DNA from: Chara braunii
Lineage: Eukaryota; Plantae; Charophyceae
Assembly (NCBI GenBank): GCA_003427395.1
Contig: BFEA01000031.1
Span: forward strand, 74,003 to 138,002
Direction: 5' to 3'
DNA length: 64,000 nucleotides
The translations under genes and the position numbers were made by a program. The notes beneath the pieces are model-generated. The model was not told the DNA's origin. It did not search any database and saw only the letters and a list, made by a program, of their open reading frames with translations. Position 1 is the stretch's first letter. Every line of letters begins with the position of its first letter. This document shows, in pieces, positions 11,501 through 58,294 of this stretch.

Positions 11501-13130
11501 GGACGCATGACTGCGTTCTCCCTCAGCAAGAACATTCGGATAGGCGGGCAACGCACTCGGTGTAGACGCGCAGTTTCGAACTCCGAACCTCTAGGGAGAT
11601 CGAGGGCACGGCGCGTCTCGGGGTAGGCAACAGAGGGATCACCTCGAAAGGTGGAGTGCAGCGGGGCGGGAGATGTGCGGAACTAGCAACAAAGGAGAGG
11701 GAAGTTGGCGCGACAGACTGAAACTTTCTCTAACGGGACGCTCGGCGAAGTTGGACGTGGACAGAACTTGTTACCAGCTGTTACCATATGAAGAGATGAA
11801 CGCTCATCCCTGTTGTTGATGGCTCGAATTCTGGTGGCGAGATGATCTACCTTTCTTGTTGTTGACTGGACCAGCTTCCTTTCACACTACTTTTCCCGCC
11901 GAAGGGGGGGAGAGGCCTTATTTGCAATAGACGGGACACTTGCAGTTGACGAAGTGATCATCCGCTACGCTGTTTGCTTGGACAACCCTTTTTTTTTTTT
12001 TTTCCTTTTATCAGGTACGTGTGACTTTGCTCGATAATGGGCAACACCCAGAGCAGCCTAGGAAGGTTCGGTGCGTGAGAAACTCTTGAGGAAACGTGTC
12101 CGGGGAAGGAGAGAGAAGAGAGGGAGTAAGGGAGACTGTTCAGAGTGCGGGGGAAGGAACATCTTGACAGCGGGAGGTAGGGGAGTGTTTGTGCTGCATT
12201 TCTCCGGTGGTTCTGTGAGGACGAACGCTGGGTACTCAGTGACTAAGGCTCGCTCATAGGCGATACTTGAACCCGAACGTGGCCGGAAGCAACTCCTTCC
12301 CCGTCCTTTGGCCGCCTGATCAACCCAAAGACTCACTTTTCTTTTTGCTGAAACCGCTGTCTTCTGTTCAACGAACCAACCAAGGTCCACCAGTGAGAGA
12401 AAGCCGAGGGAGAGAGTGATCGAAAGGGGAAGAGGAAATGAGAAAGTTAGAGAGGGGAAGGACAGCGAGACGGGAAGTCCAGTGAAGTGCTTGGGGAAGG
12501 GAGATTGAGTAAGCGGAGGCGACGGAGAGGGAGAGTGGAGAAAGTAGCGGGCGAANGGGGGGGGGGGGGGGNCCCCCTTCGCTCTCATTTAATTACCCAG
12601 TTCGTCATTCCCAGCCCTACAATTATTTTATTGTTTAATTGTCAATTCAAATATTTCGTCATGTCCGGTGAATCAAGCATCTTTGTCGTCCAATGCAACT
12701 AACTGTTTCCAGTGATACAAGTCAAGTCTCAATTTGACGATGCACTTGATGATCGGTGCGCGAAAGCTTCGGATGTCTCGCTGTTGTTCCTCATCGTCCT
12801 TCAGGGCTAAGCCTTACTCAGCTTGCTGCAAATCTCACAGCACCTCTTACAAGCGCTTTGCCCGACTCTTTGCACTCACACTGGATTTTTGGACATAGAC
12901 CTGTGTCTGGCGAGTGGTCAGTGTTGTTGAGCATTGCGAAACAGACTGAGTTTCAGGCCGGGAGCACACATGCTCGGAATCCTCCCGGGTGGGAACTCAA
13001 ACAACCAAAGCAGATACTACTTTCCCCTTGCTGGTCGCTGAGGACCTCTGAAGCGAGGACCGTGAAGTGACAGGCATTGTACCCTCTGGCTTCAGCGACG
13101 AACAGGGGCCCCTCCCCGGGTTTCGCCACA
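8600..13130 (+). mobile_element. Putative long (>=4.5 kb) LTR of element E; 5' boundary not resolved
   Basis: Ends ...TTTCGCCACA, four bases before a PBS-like 18-mer, and is complementary to the PBS region. Non-coding, with degenerate CGGTAC/GGTTCGG repeats at 9440-10560. No second copy in the window. Confidence 0.55.
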
Positions 13131-13134
13131 ACTT

Positions 13135-13152
13135 TGGCGACCTTGCCGGGGA
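13135..13152 (+). promoter_or_regulatory. Primer-binding site TGGCGACCTTGCCGGGGA (tRNA-Arg/Asp-like, Ogre/Tat/Athila style)
   Basis: Starts TGG. Resembles Ogre TGGCGACTCYRCTGGGGA and Athila TGGCGCCGTTGCCGGGGA. Follows a CA-ending segment. Confidence 0.7.
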
Positions 13153-13200
13153 GGGGAGCAGCTTAGACGGGGCGAACGGAGGTGGATAGAGTCAAGAACG

Positions 13201-14683
13201 GTAAGTAACAGCAAAGAAAAAAGAAGTAAAACAAAAATTAAATATTTAATTTCTTTAAAAATTTCGTGTAAAATACCATAAAAAGGGTTTAAGAAAAAAT
13301 TTTCCGTCAAAGATTTTGCAAATTTTGAGTGAAGTTGACGGAAAAATTTTGGGACGGAATGAGTTTTGGAGGAGAGCGTGCGGTTCCGCAAGAACCTCCC
13401 AAAACCCTAGTTAGTTAAACCCTAATTAGGGGAAACCCTAGTTAGGGAAGACTTATTCAAGGTTTTTGAGTCGGATAACAACCTCAAGGAAGAAAGATAA
13501 TATATGTGAAATATTTTGCCTTTTGTATTCTTCGGCATTTTCCCTTTTTTGTATAATTAATTTAAAGAAAATACTAAAAATAGGTGAAAAGAGTTAATTA
13601 AATTTTATTTTAATTCTAAAAATTCTGATGTCTTTTCTTTGAGGTTGTTGAGCTACGGGCGGAAGCTCCAAACCCCATCCCCACGGGAGGAGGGGAAATA
13701 CTGCCCAATTTTCTTGAAATTTTGTGTAATATTTCCAATTAATTAGGAAATAATTAGAGAAAATACTCGAAAAATTATTAAAATTCAATATTTTCTTTTG
13801 ATATTTTTTTCCTTTTGCTACACTCCTGCGGCGGCTGCTTTGAGGCCTTCGGCCACACCCCATCCCCACGGGGGGAGGCGAAGTGCTGCCGGATTTTTCG
13901 GGGACCCATGTGATAAAACAATTTTTGCCTAAAGACATACACAAGGGGCGTAAGTGTATGTATCTTACGTAAGCGAATTTTTTGTAAATTAAATACAGTT
14001 AAATACAGGAAAATCCCAAGGAAGGAAAAGGAGGAGGATATTGGAGTAGAAAGAGTTTAGGGTTGACCCCTCACCCCCTCTTAAGAGTTGGGGCCAGTGA
14101 AGGGAATTTTTCCTAATTAAAATTTATTTATTTAGTATTTATACAATAAAATTTCAAAATAAATAATTAGCGATTGGCAGAAAGCGAAACGCACTTGCCG
14201 CGCTACTCTCTAGGGGAAGCCTTGCATGCCTCTAGGCAGTGGTCGAGGGCCAGTAGGTTTCTAGAAGACAAAAGTAATTTTTAATAATTTAAATTCATTA
14301 AAATTTCCTAAAAATATAAAAATGGCTTAGAAAAATAGAGGCAAGAAGGTTATGGCCTTTTAATTTTTGTACTTAGTTAGAGGGTAACATTTGTATACCT
14401 GAGGGGTGATCGGAGCAGCCGCAGGCAGCGTTCCCTCGAACAAAGCACACACCTTATATTCGAGGGAACTTGACTAGAGGGCTTGTTGCTTTGTTTAGGG
14501 TCGGGACTCCGCCCTTTAGCACCGTACGGGACACTAGCGATAGTTAAGAGATAGATCGACATCGTAATATCGGGGCTCCCAATGAAGGGAAGCGAAGCAC
14601 TGCCGAAATTTTCTTAGGAACAACAGTCTTCTCCTGCTACCTTTCACCTTCTCTACCCATCTCTCTTACTACGTTCTCTCTAG
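13201..14683 (+). other. Predicted leader intron of element E
   Basis: Perfect donor ACG|GTAAGT at 13201, AT-rich body, long polypyrimidine tract 14628-14681, AG at 14682-83 (alternative 14689-90), ATG at 14695. Confidence 0.6.
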
Positions 14684-14694
14684 TCGTTAGTTGG

Positions 14695-15711
14695 ATGTGG
14701 CCGCAAGCGCAAGTAGAGGTCTATGAGGCCACCATCGACAGGAACTGGAAGCCCCCTGAACTCATAGAAGGGGATCTGGTGGAGCTGACGATCCCCGGGC
14801 GCAGCGTTCGATACGTTGACGACCAGTTTGCGTGGAGGTCCATAGTCTTGTCTGCAGACGTGTGGCTTTGGACGCATAGAGAGCAACAGCCTGGACAGGG
14901 AGTGGGCGTAGTGAGAGCCTACTTGTTCTTGGGACCGAACGCGGTCAGGGAGGCTGTGGTGGGCCTCGCGACGACTGGGACTAGTGGCGCGATTAGCAGG
15001 GCGTTACGCTACCTGAGGGATGAGGTAGCCGCCTTCCGAGCGGAGGACTCGAGCGACCCGTTGACCCTATTTCACGGTCGCCCTCCTCTTGATATCACGG
15101 GCGAGCTGGTGGTAGCACGGGACCGGTTTTTCCCGTACAGCGTTCGGAGTCTGCGGGCGATAGTTCCGGCGTTCGTAGTAGAGAGCGTCTTTGGAGGAAT
15201 TGGTGGAGTGGTCGAGGCATACCTAGCCTATCAGGATCTCAAGATCTTGGCGAGAAGGCCTGACGACCTCGACTACATCTATTATTCGCTCGCGACCGGT
15301 GGGCCTCGTCGGGGAGACGAGAGGGTGCAACTTATAGAGTTGATCTGGTTGATAGACGATGAGCGGCCCCAGTCTCCGTACGTTTGGGATTGGCTGGACC
15401 GTGAGCTCTGTGCAGGCCCCGAGTACGTGACCTGCATCGGGCGGCTCTTCTCAGACGACTGGGGGAGCTGGTGGAGTGAGGACGCCGGGCGACCTCTGAT
15501 ATACGGCCATCAGCTGGCAGAGTACTACCAGGCTATAGGGCAAGCGTCATACCACGTCGAGGACGAGTTTGACGACGAGGGTTGGGAGCGAGATGACGAC
15601 GAGGACGCCTGGGAGCTAGACTGGGTCGACCCAGAGAGTGAGGTTGACGAGGAGGAGATCGACTTTACGGACACCCATTTCCCCAGGATAGGAGTAGCAG
15701 TCCGAGCATAG
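14695..15711 (+). CDS. Unknown protein ORF-A (338 aa), paralogue 1, acidic Trp-rich tail
   Basis: Uninterrupted ORF with protein-like composition. Shares blocks with ORF-B and ORF-C (WRSIVLSADVWLWT; FFPY...VPAFVVESVFG; IYYSLATGGP). Confidence 0.8.
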   Translation: MWPQAQVEVYEATIDRNWKPPELIEGDLVELTIPGRSVRYVDDQFAWRSIVLSADVWLWTHREQQPGQGVGVVRAYLFLGPNAVREAVVGLATTGTSGAISRALRYLRDEVAAFRAEDSSDPLTLFHGRPPLDITGELVVARDRFFPYSVRSLRAIVPAFVVESVFGGIGGVVEAYLAYQDLKILARRPDDLDYIYYSLATGGPRRGDERVQLIELIWLIDDERPQSPYVWDWLDRELCAGPEYVTCIGRLFSDDWGSWWSEDAGRPLIYGHQLAEYYQAIGQASYHVEDEFDDEGWERDDDEDAWELDWVDPESEVDEEEIDFTDTHFPRIGVAVRA

Positions 15712-15712
15712 G

Positions 15713-16891
15713 ATGCAGAGGAGCGCATTGGGACGACGGTTGAGTGAGCTTAGCATCAGATATCCACCGATAGCGGAGAGCGGATCGATGGTAGAGCAGG
15801 CCAGTAGGGTGGAGCTTGAGATCGACGACACCAAATGGCCTAGACCCTAAGAGACAGTAGCGCCACGCAGGGTGGCGCTAGATCTGCCGGCCAGAGGGGT
15901 TTCCGCGGATGCGATAGAGAGCCGATGGTCATCGACGGTGTTGGCCCCAGACGTGCACTTGTGGACGTACGTCTTAGAGTCCTTCGAGCTGGACAGTTAG
16001 GGGTGGCGACGACCTGGCACGACTAGTATAGAGGTAGTGGGGCACATTTACTACGCGCCAGAGGTGCTAGCTACTGTCTATTATCACGGCCTCGTACATG
16101 ATCATTGGCGAGAGGAGCAGAGCGCGAGGAGGATCTTGCTGGCTCGAGCGAACTTCGCGCGCGGCGAGATAGAGCGGCTGCACGGGGACGTTCGGAGAGT
16201 GACGACGACCTTCAGGATTGGAGGACACTTCCCATATCCTAGCAGTCAACTACGTGTGACACTTCCGTGCTTTGTGGCAGAGGAGCTTTGGGGACTTAGG
16301 CGTCTGGGTGAGATCTACTTTGCGGCTCTTGACTTGGACGACCTCTGCCGAGGGTACACTGACAGGGATTGGGTGTTGTATGCGCAGTTTGTAGCAGGGC
16401 CGCTTGTAGGCGAGCGAGGACTCCAACTGATTGTGTTCCTGCGGGCCATTGTACCTACCGGGAGCCCTGACCTATACTCTCTGTACCAGCCCCTAGCCTT
16501 CTGGACGACACTAGAGAGAGAGGCTCGGAGGCCTGCAGATCATTTAGCTGGAGTAGGACAGCTGTTAGCCGAGACCCGTGAGGAGAGGCCGGGCCATCTC
16601 ATCTCGACCGGGGAGGTTGAGGAGTACTACCGGCAAGTATATCCAGAGGCTGGCGATATAGCATGGTACGCTGAGGATCGGGATTGGGAGGACTTCGATG
16701 ACTTAGACCCTTGAGACGACCAGGACGAGGGCTGGGGAGATCTGGCGCGGGTCGAGGGACAGGAGCAGGTAGGTGGAGAGGCGCCGCAGGAGAACGGCTG
16801 GGGGCATCTCCTTCAGGCCGAGGGACAGGAGGATATCCCGTGGGGCCAGAGGGTAGATGAGGAAATAGATGAGGATATGTCGGATGCGTGA
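15713..16891 (+). pseudogene. Unknown protein ORF-B, paralogue 2, three premature stops
   Basis: Same frame as track ORF 16037-16714. Read-through of TAA 15848, TAG 15998 and TGA 16712 restores full-length similarity to ORF-A (WSSTVLAPDVHLWT; HFPY...LPCFVAEELWG) and an acidic tail with DEGWGD, NGWGH, PWG. Confidence 0.8.
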
Positions 16892-17213
16892 GACGACTAG
16901 AGGCAGGGCATATCCGAGTGAGGCTTAGAGAAGGGAGTAGTGGAGAGATGGTAAGAAGATATCTTTAGGCAAGACTAGAGTGGCAGTAAGAGCAGGAAAG
17001 GATGACAGACGAAGCATGCCCTGGAGATATGTAGACGCCAGAAGTACGTCGAGTTCACTATCTACTTCCATAGAGCTGATGGGAGAGTTCATAGTACCTA
17101 CTCGGCCATACTAGATCTGACCGGGAGAGTTGTCTGAGGAGTTAGCAGCATCGTGAGATAAGGTGCATCGGAAGGAGTAGACTGATATAGATAGAGAGTT
17201 GGAGGGGAGATGA
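16884..17213 (+). pseudogene. Possible decayed small ORF-X (~110 codons)
   Basis: ATG overlaps the ORF-B stop and the final TGA overlaps the ORF-C ATG. Several internal TAG/TGA stops, so support is positional only. Confidence 0.35.
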
Positions 17214-17965
17214 GGAGTGACACAGTAGCCTGTTTAGCTTATGTTCTCTCACGAGAGTCCGAATCCTATAGCGTGAGGAAACTTGTGAGACCCAGAGAGA
17301 CGGCTGTTGGATACGACATTCCTCTTCCTGTGGCGTTAGAGGGGACAGGCTGTATTCCAATACGTTACCTGGTAACGTGGCTGGCAGAGGGACTTTTCCT
17401 TTGGACAATTATACTGAGGGATGGACGACTCGAAAGGACTCATGATCTAGAAGGCGTGGGACATCTGATAGCAGATAGAGCACACGATTTAGAGGTAGGA
17501 CTGACACTCGGAGGGGCAAGCAGGGCTTGGTGGAAAAGCGAGTTATTGGCCAGAGTGATTGTTAATCAGCAACTGGCGAGACTCTCAGGAGGAAGGACCT
17601 ATTGGAGTCGCTTGGTATACAGGCCTCCTCATCCGACCCTCTACCCGAGGGAGGGTTGGCGATTTGGACTTCCTACGTTCGTAATAGGGCAGATCTATGG
17701 GAGCATAGATCGTCTGAGTAGAGCAGTGGACCACACATTCTACGCACATTGGGAGGGCTTAGCTCCCCGTTTCAGGGAAGTATACTACGCCATTTGTGTG
17801 AGGTGGGGACCACCCCGCAGAGAGACGTTAGATGACATCATAGACATTACTAGCTGGGTGGACTGTCTGAGGTCAGTCGATCTGATCAGGTACTGCAGGA
17901 GACGAGCGAAGATTGATTACGTGGGGATAGAGGATGTGAGATTTCTCTTCGAGCTCGTCGCATAG
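17210..17965 (+). CDS. Unknown protein ORF-C (251 aa), paralogue 3
   Basis: Uninterrupted. TWLAEGLFLWT, GVGHLI, YP...LPTFVIGQIYG and VYYA...GPPRRE align with ORF-A and ORF-B. Confidence 0.78.
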   Translation: MRSDTVACLAYVLSRESESYSVRKLVRPRETAVGYDIPLPVALEGTGCIPIRYLVTWLAEGLFLWTIILRDGRLERTHDLEGVGHLIADRAHDLEVGLTLGGASRAWWKSELLARVIVNQQLARLSGGRTYWSRLVYRPPHPTLYPREGWRFGLPTFVIGQIYGSIDRLSRAVDHTFYAHWEGLAPRFREVYYAICVRWGPPRRETLDDIIDITSWVDCLRSVDLIRYCRRRAKIDYVGIEDVRFLFELVA

Positions 17966-17968
17966 GGA

Positions 17969-18601
17969 ATGCCGGGGAGGACGGCTACTGCGGTGCGCAT
18001 AGATAAGCAACTGGTAAGCACAGGGTACACTGTGACGGTACTTCTCCGAGCATACATAGATGAGGACTTGACGGCGAGGGAGTGTCGGCTACGGGCCAGG
18101 GATTTGATCCATGAGCATAGAGGCGATGTGCTGGAATAGGTGACCTTCCAGACCTCGATTTCCTATGATGTGATAATATGGTCTCATGGTTATATGCGCG
18201 TGGAGTACTACCACGATGAGGCGGAAGCAGAGGTTAGAGCAAGGATACGAGGATGAGCTGGAAGGAGATGTGGACTGAGTATGGAAGAGGAGAGTGAGGC
18301 GGTCAGAAGAGTGAGAAAGCGCATTAAAGAACCACTCTTGAACCAGGTAAAGGAGTTAGGGAACAAGATAAGGGAGAACGGGTCGTGCCAGGATGAGGGC
18401 AGACTGCGTAGGGTTGAGGTCGTGACGAGAGGGTTAGAGAGTATGTTCAAGGAGGAAAGGGAGATTATCCAGGCGTGAAAATCAGACTTTCTAGAGAGAG
18501 TAAAGGCTAGGACCGTATCACGTGAAGGAACTGGGGAGAAGTCTGCAGAGGGCGTCACAATGGAGGACAAGGTAACGCAGAAAGGTAGCGATGGGACATG
18601 A
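17969..18601 (+). pseudogene. Unknown ORF-D with a charged/coiled-coil-like C-terminal half, three premature stops
   Basis: ATG three bases after the ORF-C stop. In frame with track ORF 18281-18478. Terminal TGA overlaps the ORF-E ATG. Confidence 0.55.
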
Positions 18602-18918
18602 GCGGGACAACACTACACACGACGGACCGGTACTCATTGCATGTGGTAGGACGACTGGACGGACCGTTGGTGTTAGTGATCGTAGAGTTCCAGCTCCATA
18701 CCGGATTATGCATAGTTGAGGAGGCAGAGTACGTTCGCCGTGCGTTGCGTGAGGCTAGGGGAACAGGACTTTGGATTGGAGTGGAAGGAGGACGAAGGAT
18801 AAAATACGTACTTCGAGTAACACCTTTCGAAGGGCGGTCACGGATAAGGGCGTGGTACGAGACGATCAGAGAGGCTGAGAGGTTGAAGATAAGTGAAGCC
18901 AGGAGAGCTGGGAGCTAG
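18598..18918 (+). CDS. Unknown ORF-E (106 aa)
   Basis: Uninterrupted, protein-like, ATGA overlap with ORF-D. Confidence 0.6.
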   Translation: MSGTTLHTTDRYSLHVVGRLDGPLVLVIVEFQLHTGLCIVEEAEYVRRALREARGTGLWIGVEGGRRIKYVLRVTPFEGRSRIRAWYETIREAERLKISEARRAGS

Positions 18919-18929
18919 GGAAAGATATA

Positions 18930-19149
18930 GTGAACGGAGCAATACTTAGGGTCCTAGCAGCTCACGATGAATACTGGAGGGAATCGATAAAGACCTTGGA
19001 GGCCATAGAGGAGAAAGGAGATGAGGAAGATTTTGAGGCATTCTATGATATATTGGAGTTGTCGGCAATGAGATTGCGAGCGGCTATAGCACTGACTTCC
19101 CTCAGATGCTAGATAGAGGACCTTAAAGTTGTCTGGGGGTAAAAGGAGG
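18930..19149 (+). pseudogene. Unknown ORF-F remnant, cut by the junction at 19150
   Basis: Helical-looking 60-aa track ORF beginning 11 nt after ORF-E. The frame appears to continue through stops to the junction. Confidence 0.4.
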
Positions 19150-19414
19150 AACATTGGTTGGGCTAGTCATTAGCATTCTAGCATTCTGCTTCGCTATCTT
19201 ATACTACGTGAATGAGGTCAGTCCCGGTCAGGTCAGGATTTGTATCTAAGTCTTCCCTGCGCTATTCAGCACCATTTTGTATGTATTAGAATGCACATTG
19301 CTTGTTGAGATTCTACTTGCACTTCATTGTCCATTCAATCCTTTTCATCACATTGCGGATCCTCGGTTTCTATGTACATCGCCCAACTGGGCATGTAACA
19401 GTTGGTATCGGAAC
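19150..19414 (+). mobile_element. Truncated 5' LTR (19150-19400) and tRNA-iMet PBS (19403-19414) of chromovirus B
   Basis: Near-identical to 26974-27224. Ends CATGTAACA, followed by GT-TGGTATCGGAAC (cf. TGGTATCAGAGC). Confidence 0.93.
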
Positions 19415-20175
19415 ACCGCATTTGAATCAGGACAACCTGATCTGACATGTGTGCGGGGACTAAGTAGGTGATTAGTCTTGATAGATTGATTAGACCACAC
19501 TAGTTAGCCCCCAAAATCACGATTTTGACCTTACTGCTGAAAATTGATTTTTTTTTTCTTTTCTTGGATTTGTTTTCTCGCTATTTCTGTTGTGGAAAAA
19601 CGCAATAGCGCAACATCTGAAATTTCCATTTTTGTTTTTCTTTTGAAAATTCGAAATTTCATTGTTGAAAATCCGGAATATCTTTCTTTTCGAAAATTTT
19701 GATTTCCTGTTGCATTTCCCGTTATTTAAAAATCCGGAATACTTTTCTTCCGAAATTCGTTTTTCTGAAAACAGTACGGGAAATCCCTCCTGCAGGTATT
19801 ATTTTCTAAACTGCGAATACTCTCATCTGACTCATCTGAGTAAGTCCGAATATTTGATTTCTTTTCGGAATTGTTTTTCGCAGTTCTAGGATTCTGTTAG
19901 TCAGTACCATAAATCATTTGTAGTCTGAAGTCGAAATTTTGTCTCTGATTGATCATTTCGCACTTCAAAGGAGGTTGGGAGACCTATGAACTTGCAATAT
20001 TTGGGATTTTTATTATTTCGAAATTTTTTTGCAAAGTTCGAACTTTTCTTTTTTGATTAGTGGCTCTTTATCTGGGCGATTCTCCCCACCCACCCTCCAC
20101 ACTAATGTTATTGCCCCGTCTGGCCTTACCTTCTCTATCTATCTCTGGATACCCCCTACAGTGGCATTGGTAAGT

Positions 20176-20315
20176 TGCCACGTCAGCAGGCCATGTCAGC
20201 AGGCCATGTCAGCAAACTACGTCAGCACGCCACCAGACTACGTCAGCAGGCCACGTCAGCAAACACTGCCAGACAACAGTGCCACGTCAGCAGCAGGGAA
20301 TACCACGTCAGCAGG
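20176..20315 (+). repeat. Tandem GCCACGTCAGCA repeats in the 5' UTR of chromovirus B
   Basis: About eight imperfect copies. Confidence 0.85.
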
Positions 20316-20357
20316 CCCCCGGCCTGGTCTATGCTGTTGCGTTCACAAATAGCCGTC

Positions 20358-21861
20358 ATGGACCAGAGGTCCGGAGAAGCAGATGAGGCCTATTACGCCC
20401 GGATGCTGGCCTGGAGTACCGAAACAAAGAGACGGGCGGATGACGCAGCAACAATAGCGAAGAAGAAGGCAGAGGACGCCGAGCAGGCACGTCTGCTGGC
20501 ACTTGAACAAAAGCGCCAGCACGACGAGGCAGCAGCAAAGGCTGCTGATGAAGAACGAGTTCAACGGCGGGAGAAGATATTTAGCGGAGAGCGAACATTA
20601 CTCACAATGACAGTTGAATGGCGGACCGAGGCCGAGAATGGTAAGATGGAGGATAGCGAGAATAAGATCGCTCTACTCCTCTCCCATCTCACAGACCTCC
20701 TGGCGACATGTATTATACAGCAGGAGGACATCCACAACCTCGACGACTCGCTGGCTCAAGTCCGGCCGCCTCCGGCAGTTGGAGCAGCGACCCGTCATTG
20801 TCCCCGATGCAATCTCTTCCAACACCTCCGATCGCCTCGAAGCATTGGAGATGGACATCGGCTCCCTTAAGGACGGCATGCAGTTACAGCAGACCGCAAC
20901 GCAACAGTTGGAACAGCAGATCTGTACTACCGCCAACAACTCGAGTTCAGAACCGCGCGAGACAACTCCAAAGTTTGACGGGCAGGAGATCTTCTGCGAC
21001 TCGACGAAGAAAAATCCGATATCATGGTTCCACAAGTTCGAGCTCACGCTGCAGCTTCACTACGTCAAAGAACACAAGCACCACGCGTACTTATATTCCC
21101 GGTCGTGGGGCACGTGCCAGGCATGGTTGGACAATCTCTTGTCCAAGTACGGAGTGGTAGTTGCCGACTTGCACACCAAGATCAGTTGGGATGATCTGAA
21201 GGCGGCGTGGCACAAGCGGTTCCAAGTCGAGCCGCCAGAGATCAAGGGATTCAAGGCTATGGACAAGCTCATGGTCTTTGAACAAGGCACGCTGCCGAGT
21301 ACCGACTGGATTGCCGAGTACCAACGCTTGACATCAGTCCCAGACATCCAGATGGGCTTCAAAGCCATCCGCCACTATTTCATCTCAAGGTCGTGTCCGA
21401 CATTAAGCAATGCCCTGACTCATGTCGAGGACACCTTGACGACAACGGCGGAACTCTTTGACAAGGCCGCACAGATCATCATTACGAACAAGGAGGCTAA
21501 GAACCTGCGTTCGTCTGTGGCAGGCCCGAGCAGAGACCAGCATCAGCCAAGAGTGGTCGTGGTCACAGCGGCAACGCCGTTGACCAAACTAGTGAGGCCG
21601 TGTCTACCAATGAAGGGGACAGACTCGCAGTTGTCCGGGAAGGTGGCCGCCCCGGCAAAGGCCGAGGACGCAGCAAGACGAAGACAAGCACCGCATCTAG
21701 TTCCGGGCCCAGTGCAACAGCTCCAACCCCATGGTCTTAATACGGCATCTCCGAGCAAGCATTCAAGGCGCGCACGAGATTCCAGTATTGCCTATGGTGC
21801 GATAGCGATCTTCATGAGACACTGGCCTGCCCATTGAAAGGCGTGGGCAAACAGGGAAACT
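20358..21861 (+). pseudogene. gag: Gag of chromovirus B (frameshifted)
   Basis: Coiled-coil N-terminus, SWDDLKAAWHKRF retrotransposon-gag motif, CCHC knuckle CLWCDSDLHETLAC at 21789-21830. Confidence 0.9.
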
Positions 21862-24800
21862 GAGCACCGCCGAGAGTGACTCGGCGACACTCTCGACTCC
21901 TCCGGAACCGGTTTCTTCGCGAGTGACCGACCTTCATTTTGAGGCGCATGCGGAAGTCGATAGTCCTCCTCTTCTGTATTCTTTTGAGGACTATGCTTCC
22001 CGACTCATTCCTACGCTGGCTACTCAAGCTCAAGGACAAGACGTGTGTGCGATATCTTCTCCGTCCGGCAGCGGCGACGTATCGTCTTCAAGTGGTTCTT
22101 CACGTGATTTGGCGCGCGAGTTCAACATAGAGGTATTGGACCCGCTAATGTCCGAGGACTTCACCTGGCTTCCTCTCCAGACCACGGGCCGCTTGCCGGG
22201 ACCACAATGCGTAGCACTATGCGCTCATCTCCACACATACTTATCCCTCTATGCACCACCAACTTCGCCGACGGATGACGAAGTTGCGGTGGGGGACATC
22301 CTTGCGTATGTTACCAAGGTGGCCCGCGAGTTTCGCACGCAGCGGTACGATGACAACAACGCACCACTCATGTATGTCCGCACCCAGGTTGGGCAAGCAT
22401 CCTGCGGCGCTTTGCTGGATAGCGGCACACCTCGCAACTTCATGAGCCAAGCCTTTATGCAAAGGGTTGACCGTGGCGCACGAGTTTGGAGGAAGGCAAA
22501 CCAGACAGCGATCAAGTTGGCGGATGGAAAGACGCAGCAACTTCTCGACTGTTACATCGAGGCCATACCGGTGTATTTCGCACCTCATGCATGTGAACCG
22601 GTGACGTTCGACATTTTGAACACGGACTTCGACATCATTCTCGGAATGCCTTGGCTTGCAAGTGCGGATCACACAGTCAACTTCCACCGGCGGACTCTTA
22701 GCGTTCGCGACGCCTTCGGCGCCGAAGTGGCGTGTATTATTCCTCTATTGCACCCTTCGATTTGGTGTTAAGCGGTGACGGCCAAATCATTCCGGGTGAC
22801 TTGCGCTTACGAGCAGGCCGAGGAGATCGGCCTATGTTTCCTATGGACCGTCGTGGTAGCCGACTCTTCACCCACGGACTTGTCTTTGGACCCCCGGGTG
22901 GTGCGGTTGCTTGACGGGTTCGCCGACATCTTCGAGTCACCTACCGGTGTGTGCCGGATCGGCCGATCTCTCACGAGATCATTCTTGAGGTCGTTGCCGT
23001 GCCGCCGAAAGGTTGCATCTATCGGATGAGCGAGGAGGAGCTTGAGGTCCTCCGCGCACAACTCGACGATTTGTTGGCCAAGGTCTGAATCCGCCCTAGT
23101 AGCACCCCATATGGAGCACCAGTCCTCTTCGTCCGGAAGAAGAACAAGGATCTACGATTGTGTATCGACTACCGCAAGCTCAACACGCAAACCATCAAGA
23201 ATGTGGGGCCTCTTCCTCGCATCGACGATCTTCTTGAGCGATTGGGCGGCGCAAAGTATTTTTTTAAGTTGGATTTGAAATCGGGATATCATCAAATCTC
23301 GATCTGACTGAATGATCGCTACAAATCCGCGTTCAAGACGCGGTACAAGCATTTTGAGTGGGTGGTCATGCCTTTTGGCCTCCCCAACGCCCCGGCGACC
23401 TTTCAAGCGGCAATGACCAACGAGTTCCGTGCAATGTTGGACCGGTTCGTGCTGGTCTACTTAGACGATATTCTCGTCTATAGCCGGACATTGGAGGATC
23501 ATCTTGGGCATCTTTGACGAGTGTTGGAGACGCTCCGCCGCGCCAAGTACAAGGCCAACCGCGACAAGTGCAAATTTGTCCGGCAAGAGCTGGAATGCTT
23601 AGGCCATTTTGTCACACCGGAGGGCATCAGGCCGCTATCGGACAAGATTCAAGCCATCCAAGAATGGTCGGAGCCTCGGAACGTCACGGATGTCCGTTCG
23701 TTCCTTGGCCTCGTCGGCTACTATCAGCGTTTCATCAAAGGCTACTCGAAGATCGCGGCCCACTTGACCAAACTTCAATGCGAGGATCGGCCGTTTGACT
23801 TCGGAGAGGAGGCGCGGGAATCATTGTTAGCTCTCAAAGCCGCGCTATTATCTGCGGAGGTCTTGCGCATATACGACCCGCTTTTGCCTACTCGCATTAT
23901 GACGGATGCGTCCGGCTATGGCATTGGTGTCGTCCTCGAGCAACATGATGGTGTGGACTGGCACCCTGTCGAGTATTTCAGCAAGAAAGTGCCCGCCTTG
24001 CATTCCATTGACGATGCACGCAAGAAGGAGCTCCTCGCCTTCGTCCACGCGCTCAAGCAGTGGCGGCACTTCCTCCTTGGTCGAAGCCAATTCCGATGGG
24101 TAACGGACACAATTCGTTGGTCTTCTATAAGACCCAAGACACCATCAACAACACCATCGCTCGATGGATGACTTTCATTGACCAGTTCGACTTCTTTCCC
24201 GACCACATTCCCGGGAAGTCGAACCATTTTGCGGATGCTCTTTCACGGCGTCCGGATCACTGTACCGTGGTCTACTCAACCTTCGAGATCGACGACGACT
24301 TGCAGAACAGCTTCATCCGCGACTACCAAGTCAACCCCGAGTTTCACGATAAGTACGCGAGTTGCTCCTCTCCTAATCCGGCGGCTTCTCACTGCCGGAT
24401 CCAAGAGGGGTATTTGCTTGTCCACACACAGGGGAAGGACCTTTTTTGTGTACCGAGTGATCCTTACTTGCGTACACGGCTTCTTGGTGAGTTCCACGAT
24501 GCTCCTACCACCGGACACTTTGGAGTCAATCGCACGATTGGCCGACTTCGCGAGCGATTTTGGTGCTCCGGACTTCTCGGCAACGTCACACGCGATTGCG
24601 AGTCATGCGAGGTTTGCCGACGCTGCAAATCCCGCAACCATCATCCGTAAGGCGAGTTACGACCATTACCGGTCTCGTTGAGGCGAAGGGAAGCGATTGC
24701 CATGGACATTACCGACCCATTCCCCAAGCACAAGACCGGAGTGGATGGGATTCTCACGGTGGTTCATATCCGATTTTTCGTTGGCCCTCATCAAGCGATG

Positions 24801-25830
24801 AGACTCATCTCTCAAGCCCAGTTCAGCTCGCCTCCCTCAGACCAATGGCCAAACGGAGAGGGCGCACCAGACCGCACAGGTTCTCCTTCGCACTCTCATC
24901 CGTCTTGACCAGAAGGACTGGGTTGAGCGACTGTCGGATGTTGAGTTGGCCTACAACTCCGACCGCGATACTCGGTTCATGTCCGATTTTTGGTTGGCCC
25001 TCATCAAGCGATGGGGCTCATCTCTCAAGCCCAATTCAGCTCGCCACCCTCAGACCGATGGCCAAACGGAGAGGGCGCACCAGACCGCACAGGTTCTCCT
25101 TCGCACTCCCATCCGTCCTGACCAGAAGGACTGGGTTGAGCGGCTGTCGGATGTCGAGTTGGCCTACAACTCCTCCATCCACCCGGCTATCGGGATATCG
25201 CCCTTCCAGTTCGAGCATGGCTCGCCGGTCACTTCGCCGTTGGACATCATCACTCCACGAACGACCGAGAGCGACGACCATCTGTTTTTCTTGCTTTAGA
25301 TGCAAGAGCTACTTGTCAAGGCACGCGACCAGATGGCCAAGACGCAGCAACGCATGAGCCAGCAAGCCAATCGCCAGCGTCTTCCTTGCCTATTCCGCGC
25401 CGGCGATCTCGTTTGGGTCTCCGCCGCGGAATTCAGGCTTGAACAAGATATCTCTCGCAAGCACCTCCCGAAATGGATGGGGCCTCTTCCGATCGTAGCA
25501 CCCGCTGGAGACACACTCGAGGGACCTTCCTTCACGATTCAGGTGCCAGCCCACTTGCCCGTCTACCCAGTCTTTCATTGCTCCAAGTTGGCTCTTTACA
25601 GGCCAGCGGAACATGACAATTTTCTCGGGAGACGTTCGCAAGACCCACCCTCTATGGACGGTTTTCAGGAGGTCGGCGACATCATCTCCCAGCAACGCTA
25701 CGGCAACGGCCAACCGAGTATTTGGTGCATTTTGCATACTGCACACACCAAGCTGACCGTTGGTTGACCCGTGCGGAACTTCAAGCAACAGCTCCAGACA
25801 TTCTCGCATGATACGAACGCAAGATGCAAG
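21862..25830 (+). pseudogene. pol: Pol of chromovirus B (PR-RT-RH-INT-chromodomain), degenerate
   Basis: ALLDSG, YLDDIL, TDASGYGIG, GHFG...C..C, HPQTDGQTER, VFHCSKL. Multiple stops and frameshifts. Same family as element A. Confidence 0.95.
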
Positions 25831-25920
25831 GCAAGCCGGTCTCTTCGGCTCCACGCCACGCCCATGTCCAGGTTCCACCTTCAGATCGTCGGCTTCGCCC
25901 TCGCCCCGGCTTGACTTCAT

Positions 25921-49994: not shown

Positions 49995-50119
49995 TGGTTT
50001 TACCCACTTTGTTAAATTAGAGGGTGAAAAGTGTTCGGGCCTAGCCAATTATTCGGTTGGTTTTACCCACTTTGTTAAATTAGAGGGTGAAAAGTGTTCG
50101 GGCCTAGCCAATTATTCGG
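49995..50119. repeat. 63-bp tandem duplication
   Basis: Two essentially identical copies starting at 49995 and 50058. Confidence 0.95.
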
Positions 50120-53004: not shown

Positions 53005-54369
53005 TGAATGACAAACATGAAATGCTGTATGAAAAACATGCATGAGGGGAGGAAAGGAAAGCAGAAGGGCCCCATAGGGTAAGAACGGGTACAACAAGAG
53101 GGATATATTCATAGTAATAAGGACCTCTTATTAGAAGATGCAACCAGGAAGAGGACAGGAGACAAGCAATCTGAGAGACTCCTAGGAGCCTCCCCCCCCC
53201 TGCCCCGCCCACCCCGCCCCCTGAGACCTTTCTGCTGCAAGACGTGGTTCTGCTAGGAAGTCTCTTGGCCAGCAGAAGTAACCCCAGGGAGGCCATGGTT
53301 TGAGGGGTGGGATGGTCCGTAGCAGCTCCCCCCTTGACAGGAGAGTAGTACCGAAGGGCTAGCTGACCCTTTTTCTACATCTTTTCTGTGCTTGAACTCA
53401 TTCTTGCCGGCGATAAGCAACCGGAGTGATGGCCCCCAGAATAAAAGGGGCTTTGTGTTTTGCTACCGGAAAAAAAAAAAAAAAAAAAAGTTTGGAACAC
53501 AAAGAACTTCAACAAAACAGTGTCAATGTATCTGAACCGCATGAAGGGTCTGTGCGTTCATTTTCGGAACACCTACGACACTAAATTGGGTCCTCGTCCG
53601 GCTGGCTGCAGTTGGGCAATTTTTCAGGTTTCAGGCCGAGTCAGTAGCAGTTTGGAAAATCTGCAAAAACCAGCTATCCAGTTTGGACAGCTGGCCATAA
53701 AATTTGTTTGCAGTTGGGGCTGGGTACAATTGTAGATTTTTTTGCAGACCAGATTTGGGTCAGATGCAGTTTGCAACATACACACAGATTGCGAGCACTG
53801 ACATGTAGCTACCTAAAGGAAATCTGTCTTGTGAACAAGGAAAAAAAAACTAAATCAGTCAATGGCAAAAATAAAAACACCTACTCCAACTTCAATGCAC
53901 GAAAAACTTCACGGCCAGAAAATTTCACCACCTTGTAAGCACTGACTCATTACCAATTTTTTGTTAATGGGTGCAACAACGTCGTAAGTGAATGAGGCTG
54001 TTGCGTTGCCCGTTTGCTCGACGAAGTACATTGTCCATGATGTTGAAGTCGATAGTTACTTTTGTTTTCTTGTATTCCCGGGTAACCGCTGACGTGTTTT
54101 GCTTTTTTGTGATGACTGATGATATCCTGACTGTGATAGATATTCTTCGAGCTACGAATTTGAACATTGTATTCCGTGCGTCAATATAGTACTGTTTCAT
54201 GTACTACTTGTACGCTCACATCATCAAATGTTCATCGTCCCTTCGTGTTATCTTGTGTCTCCATATATGTGTTGCACATACTGTTAACATTTGACGATAG
54301 CTTACAACAATGCATGCAACGGTTGCGCTGCATTTGTGTGTCACCCTGACAGACACAAACTCGTAACCG

Positions 54370-57300
54370 TCTCTTTGTTCCGCTGACCGTTAAATTCGCA
54401 TCGTCCAGCTGCTCAAGTACCGCGAAAATATCTGTTAGGTGCTGCTCGACGAATCTTCTAATTCCTGGTACGACCTCTGTCTCATCCTCCTTTACTGACC
54501 CTTTAATAGGAAAATCATCCAGAAAAACTTCAACCTTATGAGGGATGAAGTCCTTGAGGACCGCTACCAGGGCTCTCTGAAAAACGGCTACCCCATTAGT
54601 CCATCCCATAGGGACGACCATCATCTGTATCAGTCCCAATGGCATGTGCATAGCCGTGAGGTGCCTGTCCCTAGGATCAAGCGGGACCTCATCATACCCT
54701 GAGAACAGATCACAGACCGAATAAATCGACCTGCCCGCAGCGCCTTCAGCCAGTAAGTCGGCGTGTGGCATAGAGCCCACGTCTCGAATCGTCACCCCGT
54801 TGACCTTCTGAAGGTCCTGGATCCACCGGATCTTGCCATTCGGCTTTTGTAGGAAGAACCATCGATTTGCATAAGCGCTGTCAGACGGCTCCGCAACATG
54901 AGAAGCCATCTTTTCTTTTAGGAAAGCGATAACCTCTTCCTTCTCCTTCTGGGCGTATTTCCATCCTGCGTCATTCCAAGGAACATGTGGAATCGTGTAA
55001 ATCCTTGCTGGCCTAGCGTATCGAGGGTCAACCCTACCGCGCTCCGCATCGCTGAAAGCTATATCCTTATCGCATGTCTTTAGGATTTCTATCACACGTT
55101 CCCGCTCCTGCGGGGTCAGATTTTCATCTCCGATGTCCATCCCTGCTATCCTCTCTTCCGTTAGGCATTGCGGCTTCTTTTTCTTCCTCTCTTTGATTTC
55201 CTTTGCGATCTCTTCTTCCGATCTCCCTTCCAGTGCAGATCGCTCGTGGCCCACCGCCGCTGGCTTAACTTTTTTAGCTACTCGCTTGTGTCGCTTGGGT
55301 AGCCCCCCATAGGGGACCGTGCCCTTAAAAAAGACACAGATACCACACCGCCAAATTCCTCATCTGCCTCCTTTGGATACGAGTTGCCGTCCACTATCAG
55401 CCGACTCCCTAAATCTTCCACTTCNACNATCCGACCTTCTTCCTCTGTGAGCAGNGGTCCATACTTCTTCTCGCAAAATCGCACCGCGCGACCGGAGTCT
55501 CGAGGCTCCACCGTCTCAATCATAACCCGCGTCCCATCTAGCTTCTTAATGGACAAAGTCTGGCTCCCATCCGGTCGCTCTATCGTCACCGCATGCACGT
55601 GGCTCAACCACGTTCGTCCCAAGAGCAGATCGGAGCTGCAGTTCTTGACTTCAAAGACAGGCAGGGTCACTCGTACCTCTTGAACCTCTATGGCTGCCTT
55701 GTGACCAACCCCGGTGATCTGTTGCTTTCTGCCATCAATCGTCTCTATCTTAAATAGGTACGACCTATCGAGGCCCAGTCCAACCTGCACTGCCAGATCC
55801 TCGTCTATAATGACAGTCTCAATGCCGTTATCGATCAGAGCATCTAGTACCGCTTCATCGTTTATGATCGCCTCCACGGCCCCACTTCCGAGTATGTAAA
55901 ACTTGTCTGAAGGCACACCTTCCATCCCATCAAGAAGGACTGTCGCCATGCGATCCACTCTAGCAGTCACCCCCGTTACTGCTACAGTAGGAGCATCCGC
56001 CTTAGGGGCTCCCTAAGCCTCCTCTGATAGGGGTATGCGAGTTTTCCGCGTGATCATCTGTAACTCGTCACGAGCTGGCTTCGATGCCGCCAGATATTCC
56101 AGAATAGAGCACTGCATGGGATGCCGAAGGGCCCGTCTTAGTGGCTCAACCGTGTCAATCTCATCCAGCGAACTCTTCATCAAGAACTTCTTCACTCCCC
56201 GCTTCCGCGGCAAAAGAATAACCTGCTCCCCATCGATCCGTTGTCCGTCCTTCTCCGCCATCACGTAATCCGTGTCAGTCTTCTTCGATGTAGACCCTCT
56301 CGCCGACTTGGTGGCCGCCACCCTTATGGGTGTGGTCGCCATATCCCCCTCAAAAGTTATCTTGATGCTCTGGCTCCTGACTGGGGTCCTTTCCTTTACT
56401 CGACTTTACTCTCCTTGCTTCGACATTCTTCTTCATCGAAGGGAACATCGATACATCTCCCAGATCATCTGCCCACTTAACGTACTTGCGGTCGTCAAGC
56501 ACGACAAGTCTCTCATCTATTGCCCATTTGAGGTCCGGACAATCTCTCTTGATATGATCATCCCCTCTACAGTAGACGCAAGAGTTCCTGGGAGTGGGTG
56601 GCCTGTCGTCTGCGCCTCTGGAGGTCGTACCTCTCGCTGCTCTGGGGTCAGGGGACTTCGGATACGGATCACACGACGCGCCATATCCCCCTCTCTCATT
56701 CCTACCGCGCGAGTCATTGCGGCGGTCTCCATGTTCGTATCACCCTCGTGAATCATCACGTCGGTCTCCTCGGTCGTATCGCCCGCGTGAATCATCACGT
56801 CGGTCTCCTCGGTCGTATCGCCCGCGTGAATCATCATGTCGGTCTCCTCGGTCGTATCACCCGCGCGGCTCATCGCGTTGATCTCCTCTCTCATATCTGC
56901 CACCCCTGTATCCGTCTCGATCCGACCTCTCATATTTGTCGTCCCTATATCCATCTCGGTCCGCCTCTCATATCTGTTGTCCCTGTATCCATCTCGTCGG
57001 CCCTGATCCGACTCCCACCTACCTCGAGAGTCGTCTCTACCCCCATTAGGCTCATAGCGAGGGCTACGCAAGTAGTCATCCATTCTCCTAGCTTGCCCAT
57101 ACGTCTCGTGAGTCCTGCGGTCCCGGTCTATCTCATCGTCCCTACATCGCCATGGCTCATCGTCTCTCTCCCTTTCCCTCGCACGATAATCAGTCAGCGT
57201 TCGATGATTTCTATCCTCGACACTTCTCCAGGAATCAGTCTTCTTTCGGTCCCAGCGAAGTGAATAGGGTCCTCCGGGCTTGTCCCGGTATGTCGTGGCT

Positions 57301-58290
57301 CCTGTGGTGGTCACAATCTCTGTAACCTGTCTTGTCAATCACTTTACCATGTCCCTTATCTCCTTCACTTCCTCAGTCACGGCTTCATTCTTCTCTGACC
57401 AGGGATAGTCATTGAAATTAGGACATTTATCAGTGGCATACTCCTTGTAGAGAGAGAAGTCACGCCTCCTCATCCCTCTCCACACCAAGTCCTTGTAGTC
57501 GTCTGCCTCTACCTTTGTCGCGAGCTTTATGACTTCTGGGAAGTCAAGCTTGTCGCGCGGAAGATCTCTAAGTATACTCTTTTGTCTACCTTTGGACAGG
57601 TGTCCAATGAAGATAGTACAACGCTCGACCTCTGAGATCTTCCCCTTCTTCATCAGCACGTCGGAGATCTTCTGGAAACGCATTCCAAATGCCCGTACGC
57701 TCTCATCTTGATCTTGAGTCATCGTCTCAAGATCCTTGATGGAGTACTTGTTATCCTCCAATTTGTAAAGCTCAACGAGACTCTTTTTATACGTAGTCCA
57801 TTTTCCATCCTTTGGTCGGGCTTCCTTTACTTCCTTGTCGAGGCTCGGGTCCACATTAAATAGGAAGTTCTCTATAATCTCTTCCTCCGACCACTGACTC
57901 CGGCTAGCATGAAGCTCCCACTTCTCCAGATATTCTGTGATGCCGTAGCCTCTGAAAGTAGGAGGCTTCGAGACCTTGTGCGTAATAATATACGGATCCT
58001 TGCTCTCGTAAGGGAGCGGATGCGACTCCCCTGTCTGGGGGTCGAAGACTCGCCTGGGTGGCGCTCTGTCTCTATCTCTGTCCCTCCAATAGGAATCACT
58101 CGAACTCTCTCTCCAGTCGTCCATGTGCCTATCCGCCAGGGTTTCCCTTCGCTCATACTCAGGGAAGCGTCGTCTCGTCGCTTCTCGTCGACCGCTCGAG
58201 GTTCTCGTCTTCAGAGCCTCCTGCGGCTCCGTCACGACCGGCTCACCCATTACGTCAGGCTCTCCGTCATTGGTTTGGTCAACCCACCTC
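54370..58290 (-). pseudogene. Ty3/Gypsy-type gag-protease-RT fragment (element D), truncated after RT, no LTR visible
   Basis: Gag (PPTFRGYGITEYLEKWE), RD-rich region, CCHC knuckle CVYCRGDDHIKRDC at 56539-56580, protease ALIDNG...LLLGRTWL, RT DLFSGY...PMGWTNG...FLDDF. Confidence 0.92.
56735..56866. repeat. 39-bp coding tandem repeat within gag of element D
   Basis: Three to four copies of CGCGTGAATCATCACGTCGGTCTCCTCGGTCGTATCGCC. Confidence 0.9.
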
Positions 58291-58294
58291 AGCC

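What the first reader, a model, noticed from the sequence alone, without database searches (positions are those of the whole stretch)
14695..19149. Operon-like chain of about six stop/start-coupled unknown ORFs in the position where gag should be
Seen: junctions are A TAG-g-ATG B (15709-15715), B/X ATGcgTGA (16884-16891), X/C ATGA (17210-17213), C TAG-gga-ATG D (17963-17971), D/E ATGA (18598-18601), and an 11-nt gap before F. Premature stops are TAA/TAG/TGA, consistent with the C->T decay seen across the window. The chain starts just after a predicted leader intron that begins 48 nt downstream of a PBS. None of the ORFs resembles gag, pol or env. Known: Ogre elements have one extra ORF before gag, and stop/start overlaps mediate termination-reinitiation in caliciviruses and some retroelements. 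Inference: a polycistronic accessory cassette of an LTR element, or a captured viral block.
Basis: partly seen in the sequence, partly recalled or inferred. Interest (0 to 1): 0.88.

Follow-up and report, generated by a model that had tools for sequence, protein, structure and literature searches.

The report
Jumping gene with five extra genes
A decayed jumping gene, likely from the freshwater alga Chara, carries a row of at least five extra genes of unknown kind that likely sit ahead of its normal coat and copying genes; four of them hold few start codons, so ribosomes likely slide past one gene to reach the next, as in some plant viruses.

Summary
ORFs A-E are real, multi-copy coding frames; all credible homologues are Chara braunii gene models. 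A, B and C are 25-28% identical paralogues of a family with no Pfam, PHROG, PDB or fold match. Five gene models on five scaffolds join A or D to one Ty3/gypsy gag-pol family, so the chain lies ahead of gag rather than replacing it; here it is cut at 19150 by another element's LTR. Of six junctions only D/E (ATGA) is well supported: B starts at 15788 in 6 of 6 full models, X has chance-level stops, F's GTG is not conserved. New: ATG is the most depleted triplet in A, B, C, E (22 vs 43; 1 internal Met in about 1060 codons vs 19 in 897 for the same family's gag-pol), remaining AUGs open mini-ORFs (median 3 codons vs 13), and first starts are weak. Best model: a spliced subgenomic RNA read by leaky scanning plus short-ORF reinitiation (tungro/badnavirus-like), with stop/start coupling at D/E. 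Expression, splicing and protein function are not shown. New variant of a known kind.

The parts
12572..13130 (+). likely 3' part of the element's 5' LTR (ends in CA; start lost at an N/G run near 12556-12572; no partner LTR in the window)
   Evidence: sequence; self-BLAST finds no second copy; inferred from the PBS that follows
13135..13152 (+). primer binding site, tRNA-Asp-like
   Evidence: 16 of 18 letters equal the tRNA-Asp PBS printed for FIDEL/Athila (PMC2844528 table 1); conserved among copies (depth peak 13042-13272)
13201..14683 (+). predicted leader intron (GTAAGT ... polypyrimidine tract, TAG; second AG at 14689-14690); holds 9 ATGs, 38% GC
   Evidence: best acceptor of 13230-19148; no spliced read among the joints shown
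14695..15711 (+). ORF A, 338 aa, intact, no internal Met, weak start context (U-3, U+4), acidic Trp-rich tail
15712..15787 (+).
15788..16891 (+). ORF B, 367 codons, 3 premature stops in this copy; paralogue of A; acidic tail with 2-4 WG/GW pairs
16884..17213 (+). segment X: spacer or long-decayed short ORF; its ATG overlaps B's stop and its TGA overlaps C's ATG in one frame, but stops are at chance level
   Evidence: no homologue
17210..17965 (+). ORF C, 251 aa, intact, no internal Met; distant paralogue of B and A, lacks the acidic tail
17969..18601 (+). ORF D, about 200-210 codons, 3 premature stops; AUG-rich; start uncertain (17969 or 4-8 codons later)
18598..18918 (+). ORF E, 106 aa, intact, no internal Met; ATGA overlap with D's stop
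18919..19149 (+). ORF F fragment, likely coding, start unknown, cut at 19149
19150..19401 (+). last 250 nt of the 5' LTR of an unrelated, younger Ty3 element; marks the deletion/junction that removed the rest of the cassette element
   Evidence: 97.6% to 26974-27223; loose ends before 19150
54283..58294 (-). another, 5'-truncated copy of the gag-protease-RT family to which other copies join ORFs A and D

Best explanation
The chain is likely the 5' accessory-gene cassette of a high-copy Ty3/gypsy LTR retrotransposon family, likely of Chara braunii, lying between the primer binding site and gag-pol, and it is likely read from one spliced RNA by leaky scanning with reinitiation after tiny ORFs, plus stop/start reinitiation at D/E. 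Shown: multi-copy coding ORFs A-E; A, B, C arose by duplication; AUG depletion in A, B, C, E; the copy here is decayed and cut at 19150. Inferred: a splice from 13200 to 14684 removes nine upstream AUGs and makes A the first long ORF behind the PBS; A's weak start lets most 40S subunits pass, B's start is intermediate, C's and D's are stronger; D is AUG-rich and ends the scan, so E is reached by reinitiation at ATGA, and AUG-poor E lets ribosomes go on to F; gag-pol would need another RNA or splice. Most likely role of the A/B/C proteins (weak, about 0.25): soluble host-interaction factors that blunt RNA silencing, B through an acidic WG/GW (Argonaute-hook-like) tail.
For: Link to gag-pol: CBR_g8243 and g36261 (A to gag/protease), g847 (D to protease), g44452 and g9168 (D to gag, the latter on to protease and RT), on five scaffolds, all to the family at window 58294-54283, always in the order cassette then gag-pol. 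Distant families keep the plan: g37449 holds A-like (45%) and D-like (36%) parts; g38348 holds an A-like part (25%) ahead of a different gag (Retrotrans_gag E 0.0017). Paralogy: A/B E 9e-15, B/C E 1e-5. AUG signature: ATG rank 1 of 64 depleted triplets in A+B+C+E (22 vs 43.3, P 3e-4), rank 57 in the same family's gag-pol; internal Met 1 in 1066 codons vs 19 in 897; out-of-frame ATG 21 vs 29.4 in protein-preserving shuffles (P 0.015), controls 40 vs 35.6 and 47 vs 35.9; NAT-G 18 of 60 vs 58 of 111 for other pyrimidine-ending codons before G (P 0.004; 33 of 53 in gag-pol); the 22 remaining out-of-frame AUGs open ORFs of median 3 codons vs 13.4-13.6 (0 of 500 and 0 of 300 shuffles), not so for ACG or GTG triplets, ORF D, other Ty3 ORFs or the same family's gag-pol (12 vs 11.5). 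Four of five distant A-like proteins do carry internal Met (21 in 1326 residues over all five), so the fold does not forbid it. Only A has a strong splice acceptor ahead of it. Precedent: PMC5902531 (passages).
Against: The link to gag rests on predicted, spliced gene models, not on contiguous DNA; 2 further close fusions go elsewhere (g56535 has another family's pol ahead of A; g39667 joins C's start to unrelated sequence). 22 internal AUGs remain over 3.2 kb, whereas RTBV scans 900 nt with none; A's four out-of-frame AUGs are not significantly short (P 0.23) and X is not AUG-poor (5 vs 5.8). Lys, Asn and the AA dinucleotide are also scarce in these ORFs, so part of the Met lack may be compositional. 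Listed differences in B, C, D are mostly non-synonymous (0 of 4, 1 of 4, 2 of 6), from a small selected set (40 of 877 rows shown). RNA reads (runs X6, X7, X8) come from both strands, cover the intron too, are sparse in 2 of 3 runs and show no 13200/14684 joint among the 15 of 29 joints shown. WG enrichment in B's tail is marginal (4 of 6 Trp, P 0.018, in one intact copy; 3 of 5, P 0.08, here), noticed after the fact, and absent from one distant A tail.
Confidence: 0.6

Rival explanations
1. Chain of stop/start termination-reinitiation at every junction, with X as a real bridging ORF.
For: ATGA at D/E appears conserved; X begins over B's stop and ends over C's start in one frame, and both of those outer ends are shared by other copies; SART1 and caliciviruses work this way (PMC10275272 passages).
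Against: A/B coupling is not used by 6 of 6 B models; X stops at chance level; D and F starts are not conserved; a quarter of all stop triplets have an ATG within 7 nt; serial reinitiation would not need AUG-poor ORFs.
Confidence: 0.15
2. Each ORF has its own RNA (alternative splicing from the 13200 donor, internal promoters or early polyadenylation, as for MDG1 sORF1), and the AUG lack is a by-product of composition.
For: Low Lys/Asn/AA shows an unusual composition; MDG1 elements make a short sORF1 RNA (bioRxiv 2025.03.14.642691 passages).
Against: No acceptor as strong as A's lies ahead of B-E (0.84 vs at most 0.68 pyrimidine); no AATAAA in the chain; depletion and mini-ORF effects are ATG-specific and survive protein-preserving shuffles.
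Confidence: 0.15
3. The cassette is a captured viral block or the cargo of a non-autonomous element that only happens to lie beside this gag-pol family.
For: No contiguous DNA from cassette to gag was obtained; uneven depth (A, C, D, E far above B, X, F) suggests cassette variants.
Against: Five scaffolds join it to the same gag-pol family in the same order; no viral relative; among 1.84 billion representatives 9 of 10 hits are C. braunii models, the tenth a repeat-rich weak match.
Confidence: 0.1

Closest known systems
Rice tungro bacilliform virus and badnaviruses (Caulimoviridae): leaky scanning through AUG-free ORFs I and II (PMC5902531, passages)
   Same: Consecutive long ORFs poor in internal AUG, weak first starts, short internal uORFs tolerated; reverse-transcribing element of plants.
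   Different: Here an integrated LTR element with a tRNA-Asp-like PBS; about 3.3 kb and three long ORFs to scan instead of 900 nt and two; AUGs reduced, not absent; no sequence relation to viral proteins.
Plant non-chromovirus Ty3/gypsy OTA elements (Ogre, Tat, Athila) with extra ORFs (PMC6317226 passages; PMC7264820 first third; Ogre's single ORF ahead of gag is recalled)
   Same: Long Ty3 element, extra ORFs of unknown origin, long non-coding leader, PBS close to Athila's tRNA-Asp site.
   Different: At least five 5' sense ORFs, three of them paralogous; no plant mobile domain, Transposase_28 or Athila ORF-1 match; PMC6317226 found no non-chromoviruses in the algae it sampled; RT lineage not placed here.
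Drosophila MDG1 group (412, Mdg1, Stalker): sORF1 and sORF2 upstream of gag (bioRxiv 10.1101/2025.03.14.642691, passages)
   Same: More than one accessory ORF between 5' LTR and gag, in sense, under coding constraint.
   Different: Two ORFs of 70-110 aa with an internal poly(A) site and no splicing; here 4.5 kb, ORFs up to 367 aa, a predicted leader intron, no clear membrane anchor.
Termination-reinitiation in caliciviruses (TURBS) and SART1 (PMC10275272, passages)
   Same: AUGA overlap at D/E.
   Different: Only one well supported junction; no conserved TURBS-like motif at a fitting distance.
WG/GW Argonaute-hook silencing suppressors such as SPMMV P1 (PMC2904775, abstract)
   Same: Two to four WG/GW pairs in an acidic tail of ORF B across 8 copies.
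   Different: No sequence relation; binding untested; enrichment marginal.

Membership tests
Ty3/gypsy LTR retrotransposon | PBS a few bases behind an LTR ending in CA | tested here: met
   CA at 13129-13130, PBS 13135-13152, 16 of 18 to a published tRNA-Asp PBS
Ty3/gypsy LTR retrotransposon | paired LTRs around the element | tested here: inconclusive
Ty3/gypsy LTR retrotransposon | gag-protease-RT order downstream | tested here: met
   gene models g9168, g44452, g847, g8243, g36261; Pfam Asp_protease_2 then RVT_1; link is by predicted splicing
Ty3/gypsy LTR retrotransposon | integrase after RNase H | not testable with these tools
   no copy reaching the integrase was obtained; window copy ends at 54283
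Athila clade | PBS complementary to tRNA-Asp | tested here: inconclusive
   16 of 18 letters; host tRNA not at hand
Athila clade | RT-RH-INT phylogeny | not testable with these tools
   no reference RT set; RT only 27% identical to the window's other Ty3 RT
Athila clade | Athila ORF-1 domain (PF03078) in the extra ORFs | tested here: not met
   no such hit at E <= 1 (domain is in only 16% of Athila elements, PMC6317226)
Tat/Ogre clade | additional archaeal-type RNase H | tested here: inconclusive
   no RNase H family hit between protease and RT in g9168; later positions not seen
Tat/Ogre clade | plant mobile domain (PF10536) in the extra ORF | tested here: not met
   no hit (domain is in 57% of Ogre elements, PMC6317226)
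RTBV/badnavirus-type leaky scanning (works like) | upstream ORFs devoid of internal AUG | tested here: inconclusive
   strong depletion but 22 remain in this decayed copy, 13 opening ORFs of at most 4 codons
RTBV/badnavirus-type leaky scanning (works like) | weak or moderate context at the first starts | tested here: met
   A U-3/U+4, B U-3/G+4, C G-3/A+4; second residue Trp in 7 of the 8 close A models that share this start, Val in 5 of 6 B models
Caulimoviridae (membership) | movement protein, coat protein and RT polyprotein | tested here: not met
   no Pfam hit in the cassette; linked genes are Ty3-type gag-protease-RT
TURBS-type termination-reinitiation | stop and start within 20 nt | tested here: met
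   D/E ATGA; PMC10275272
TURBS-type termination-reinitiation | 18S-complementary motif upstream of the stop (UGGGA, recalled) | tested here: not met
   within 100 nt of D's stop only one, 7 nt before it, at letters that differ in most other copies
env-like or sORF2/FAST-like membrane protein | transmembrane segment | tested here: inconclusive
   best 19-residue hydropathy 1.89 (A), 1.74 (E), under 1.5 for B, C, D, F; models show soluble-type alpha/beta plus helical domains at pLDDT 42-52
WG/GW Argonaute-hook proteins | repeated WG/GW in an acidic or polar tail | tested here: inconclusive
   2-4 per B tail in 8 of 8 copies, 1-2 per close A tail; P 0.018-0.08
WG/GW Argonaute-hook proteins | binds Argonaute | not testable with these tools
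   no host Argonaute at hand

The most novel reading that the evidence does not exclude
A 'complex' LTR retrotransposon lineage of charophyte algae that, like a pararetrovirus, runs a five- to six-gene accessory operon from one spliced subgenomic RNA by a graded leaky-scanning cascade over more than 3 kb plus a stop/start reinitiation step, and whose triplicated, so far fold-less protein family acts as an Argonaute-binding silencing suppressor.
Probability: 0.2. Interest if true: 0.88.

Novelty: new variant of a known kind. Interest (0 to 1): 0.62.

Why it matters
The plant and insect LTR elements in the papers read here carry one or two extra ORFs; a conserved row of five or more ahead of gag, with internal gene triplication and a virus-like translation signature, extends how complex a Ty3 element can become and offers a natural long-distance leaky-scanning cassette that can be tested with reporters. 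It also shows that at least 26 'hypothetical' C. braunii gene models are wholly or partly pieces of such cassettes, which bears on orphan-gene counts in a genome used to infer land-plant origins. If the A/B/C proteins suppress silencing they would help explain the family's high copy number.

Tried and rejected
No whole genome was held, so copies were studied through gene models and laid reads. Pfam, PHROGs and PDB sequence searches gave nothing above noise for the cassette. AlphaFold2 models of A were poor (pLDDT 41.9 and 52.2); Foldseek PDB and BFVD gave no E <= 0.001; VIA-align best Z 5.5, with recurring GNAT-like matches to residues 23-139 at Z 4-4.8 and helical matches to 169-285, all within what is common: no fold assigned, none excluded. 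ESM Atlas: no usable hit for A; AAR2-like clusters at 0.82-0.84 for a B homologue are a lead only, with no support from Pfam or PDB. Viral contigs: nothing for A, C or the RT. Metagenome contigs: nothing for E; the single A hit L001 is a short match in an unrelated-looking ORF, rejected. P0036 is a repeat-rich chance match. Run search: no RNA holder listed. Rfam: none. No tRNA in the window. The same-family control had one segment out of frame (17 stops) and was redone. The tblastx list shows only scattered short pieces and was ignored. A single polyprotein was rejected because stops are shared by other copies. The bases following F in other copies did not appear among the loose ends shown. 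Searches for a published description of such a cassette in Chara or of leaky scanning through several 5' ORFs of an LTR element listed none; the 2018 Chara genome paper is not held and its text or supplements may describe this repeat family.


Full report
1. What is in the sequence. The quoted letters are all present. Against shuffles, A-E are clearly stop-poor in frame, X is at chance (6.95 expected) and F borderline. Upstream lie a CA end at 13129-13130, a PBS at 13135-13152 that matches 16 of 18 letters of the tRNA-Asp PBS printed for the Athila-type element FIDEL (PMC2844528, passages), a GTAAGT donor at 13201 and the strongest acceptor of the region at 14683. Downstream, 19150-19399 is 97.6% identical to 26974-27223: the last 250 nt of the 5' LTR of another Ty3 element (protease, RNase H, integrase zinc finger). 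The chain is therefore cut by a deletion or junction, and F is incomplete.

2. Where it belongs. All credible protein relatives are Chara braunii gene models; a profile search of 1.84 billion representatives gave 10 hits, 9 of them C. braunii models or their clusters and one repeat-rich chance match. The window is thus most likely C. braunii (inference). Laid DNA contigs show every ORF in many copies, with summed depth 10,000-55,000 over A, C, D, E and 500-2,000 over B, X, F, against about 10 for a single contig (the tool warns that this is no copy number). Five gene models on five scaffolds join cassette ORFs to one gag-pol family, of which the window holds another truncated copy at 58294-54283 on the minus strand: CBR_g8243 and g36261 from A, g847, g44452 and g9168 from D. 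Two other close fusions go elsewhere (g56535, g39667). g51443 joins A to C. In more distant families, g37449 has A-like and D-like parts in order, and g38348 an A-like part ahead of a different gag. So the chain is a 5' accessory cassette ahead of gag, old enough to be shared by diverged families. The link rests on predicted splicing, not on contiguous DNA.

3. The ORFs are separate genes under constraint. Of 10 other close A models 8 share its start and 4 end at its stop; 3 are spliced onward, 1 partial, 1 ends earlier, 1 runs 24 residues on. Among listed majority differences, E has 13 of 19 synonymous (expected share 0.33, P 0.002), F 6 of 11 (P 0.04), A 5 of 7 (P 0.015) (32 of the 40 rows were entered and 30 counted, rows outside E and F or past F's first stop left out); B, C and D show 0 of 4, 1 of 4 and 2 of 6, from 40 of 877 rows shown. 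No family or fold could be assigned.

4. The junctions. A quarter of all stop triplets in the chain have an ATG within 7 nt (55 of 221), so each junction needs outside support. A/B fails: 6 of 6 full B models begin at 15788 and A's Met1 aligns there. C/D is open: the three D models begin 4 or 8 codons later. F's GTG is not shared. D/E holds: conservation starts at E's ATG and none of the 40 rows shown (of 58) touches ATGA. B/X and X/C stand or fall with X: its two ends are coupled in one frame and its middle reads better in another frame, so it may be a long-decayed short gene; I put that near even odds.

5. The mechanism the sequence points to. A, B, C and E hold one internal Met in 1066 codons, against 19 in 897 for the same family's gag-pol. 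ATG is the most depleted of 64 triplets after allowing for dinucleotides (22 vs 43.3, P 3e-4) and ranks 57th in gag-pol. The effect holds out of frame under protein-preserving shuffles (21 vs 29.4, P 0.015) and in the choice of NAC over NAT before G. The 22 remaining out-of-frame AUGs open ORFs of median 3 codons against about 13.5; ACG and GTG triplets, ORF D and both gag-pol controls show no such effect; the signal comes from B and C, not A. Start contexts rise from weak (A) to moderate (B, C, D). The nine ATGs between PBS and A all lie in the predicted intron. This is the pattern described for rice tungro bacilliform virus and badnaviruses, where ORFs I and II lack internal AUGs, first starts are weak, and a short uORF placed inside ORF II did not hinder ORF III (PMC5902531, passages). 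D is AUG-rich (16 vs 13), so scanning should end there, which explains why the one firm stop/start overlap follows D. Caveats: Lys, Asn and AA are scarce too; X is not AUG-poor; the distance is over three times that of RTBV; RNA reads do not show the splice and may be DNA carry-over or unspliced RNA. Steps shown: composition, contexts, shared boundaries. Steps inferred: splicing, scanning, reinitiation, a separate route to gag-pol.

6. Protein function. Best guess only: soluble accessory factors acting on the host. B's acidic tail has 2-4 WG/GW pairs in 8 of 8 copies, the motif that SPMMV P1 uses to bind AGO1 (PMC2904775, abstract); the enrichment is marginal and was noticed after the fact. 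D, E and F have no lead.

7. Comparison and novelty. Extra ORFs are common in plant non-chromoviruses and mostly of unknown origin (PMC6317226, passages; PMC7264820, first third); MDG1 elements have two small ORFs ahead of gag (bioRxiv 2025.03.14.642691, passages); orchid Tat elements carry one captured ORF (PMC9289625, passages); bdelloid elements capture extra ORFs (PMC5408684, search listing). My searches listed no description of a five-gene 5' cassette or of this family, but the Chara genome paper and its supplements were not available. Earlier notes of this scan report single AUG-free ORFs ahead of gag in other elements (seen after my own AUG tests, unchecked). It works like a tungro/badnavirus polycistronic RNA; it is filed as a Ty3/gypsy element of unplaced lineage (its RT recalls fungal non-chromoviral Ty3 elements, from memory only). 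Verdict: real feature, new variant of a known kind, interest 0.62.

Noticed in passing
window 19150-27223 (+): Young Ty3 element whose 3' LTR (about 25938-27223) is whole but whose 5' LTR keeps only its last 250 nt (97.6% identical); gag-pol broken by frameshifts, with a 213-nt tandem duplication at 24761-25173.
   Followed up: partly
window 728-4038 (-): Chromodomain-bearing Ty3 pol fragment (RNase H, integrase zinc finger, SH3, Chromo E 3.7e-5), 68-74% similar to the element at 22944-25193.
   Followed up: partly
window 38653-51265: LTR pair of about 915 nt, 91.6% identical, 11.7 kb apart; interior looks mostly non-coding by eye and shares 2 kb, inverted, with 4067-6559; possibly a large non-autonomous element.
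   Followed up: no
window 54283-58294 (-): gag-protease-RT of the cassette's own family, cut at its 5' end by an (AG)n tract; a 39-nt tandem repeat encodes an Arg/Asp/Gly-rich stretch ahead of a CCHC knuckle.
   Followed up: partly
window 13668-13712 and 13853-13897: Two 45-nt GC-rich copies (84% alike) inside the AT-rich predicted intron, in hairpins (region z -2.05), in a bin more conserved among copies than its neighbours; candidate packaging or dimerisation signal.
   Followed up: partly
window 14695-18918: Lys, Asn and the AA dinucleotide are strongly under-used in A, B, C, E and in distant A relatives; unexplained.
   Followed up: partly
window 15788-17209 and 18919-19149: Summed contig depth over B, X and F is 10-70 times lower than over A, C, D and E, although B models are as close to the window as A models; suggests subfamilies with different or recombined cassettes.
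   Followed up: no
protein P0033 (CBR_g37449), residues 175-215: A 41-residue stretch 46-54% identical to this family's gag lies between the A-like and D-like parts of a distant copy; nested elements or a gag piece copied into the cassette.
   Followed up: no
window 12580-19149, run X7: One of three RNA runs of one study has depth 20-35 over A, C, D, E, the other two almost none; tissue-specific expression or DNA carry-over.
   Followed up: partly
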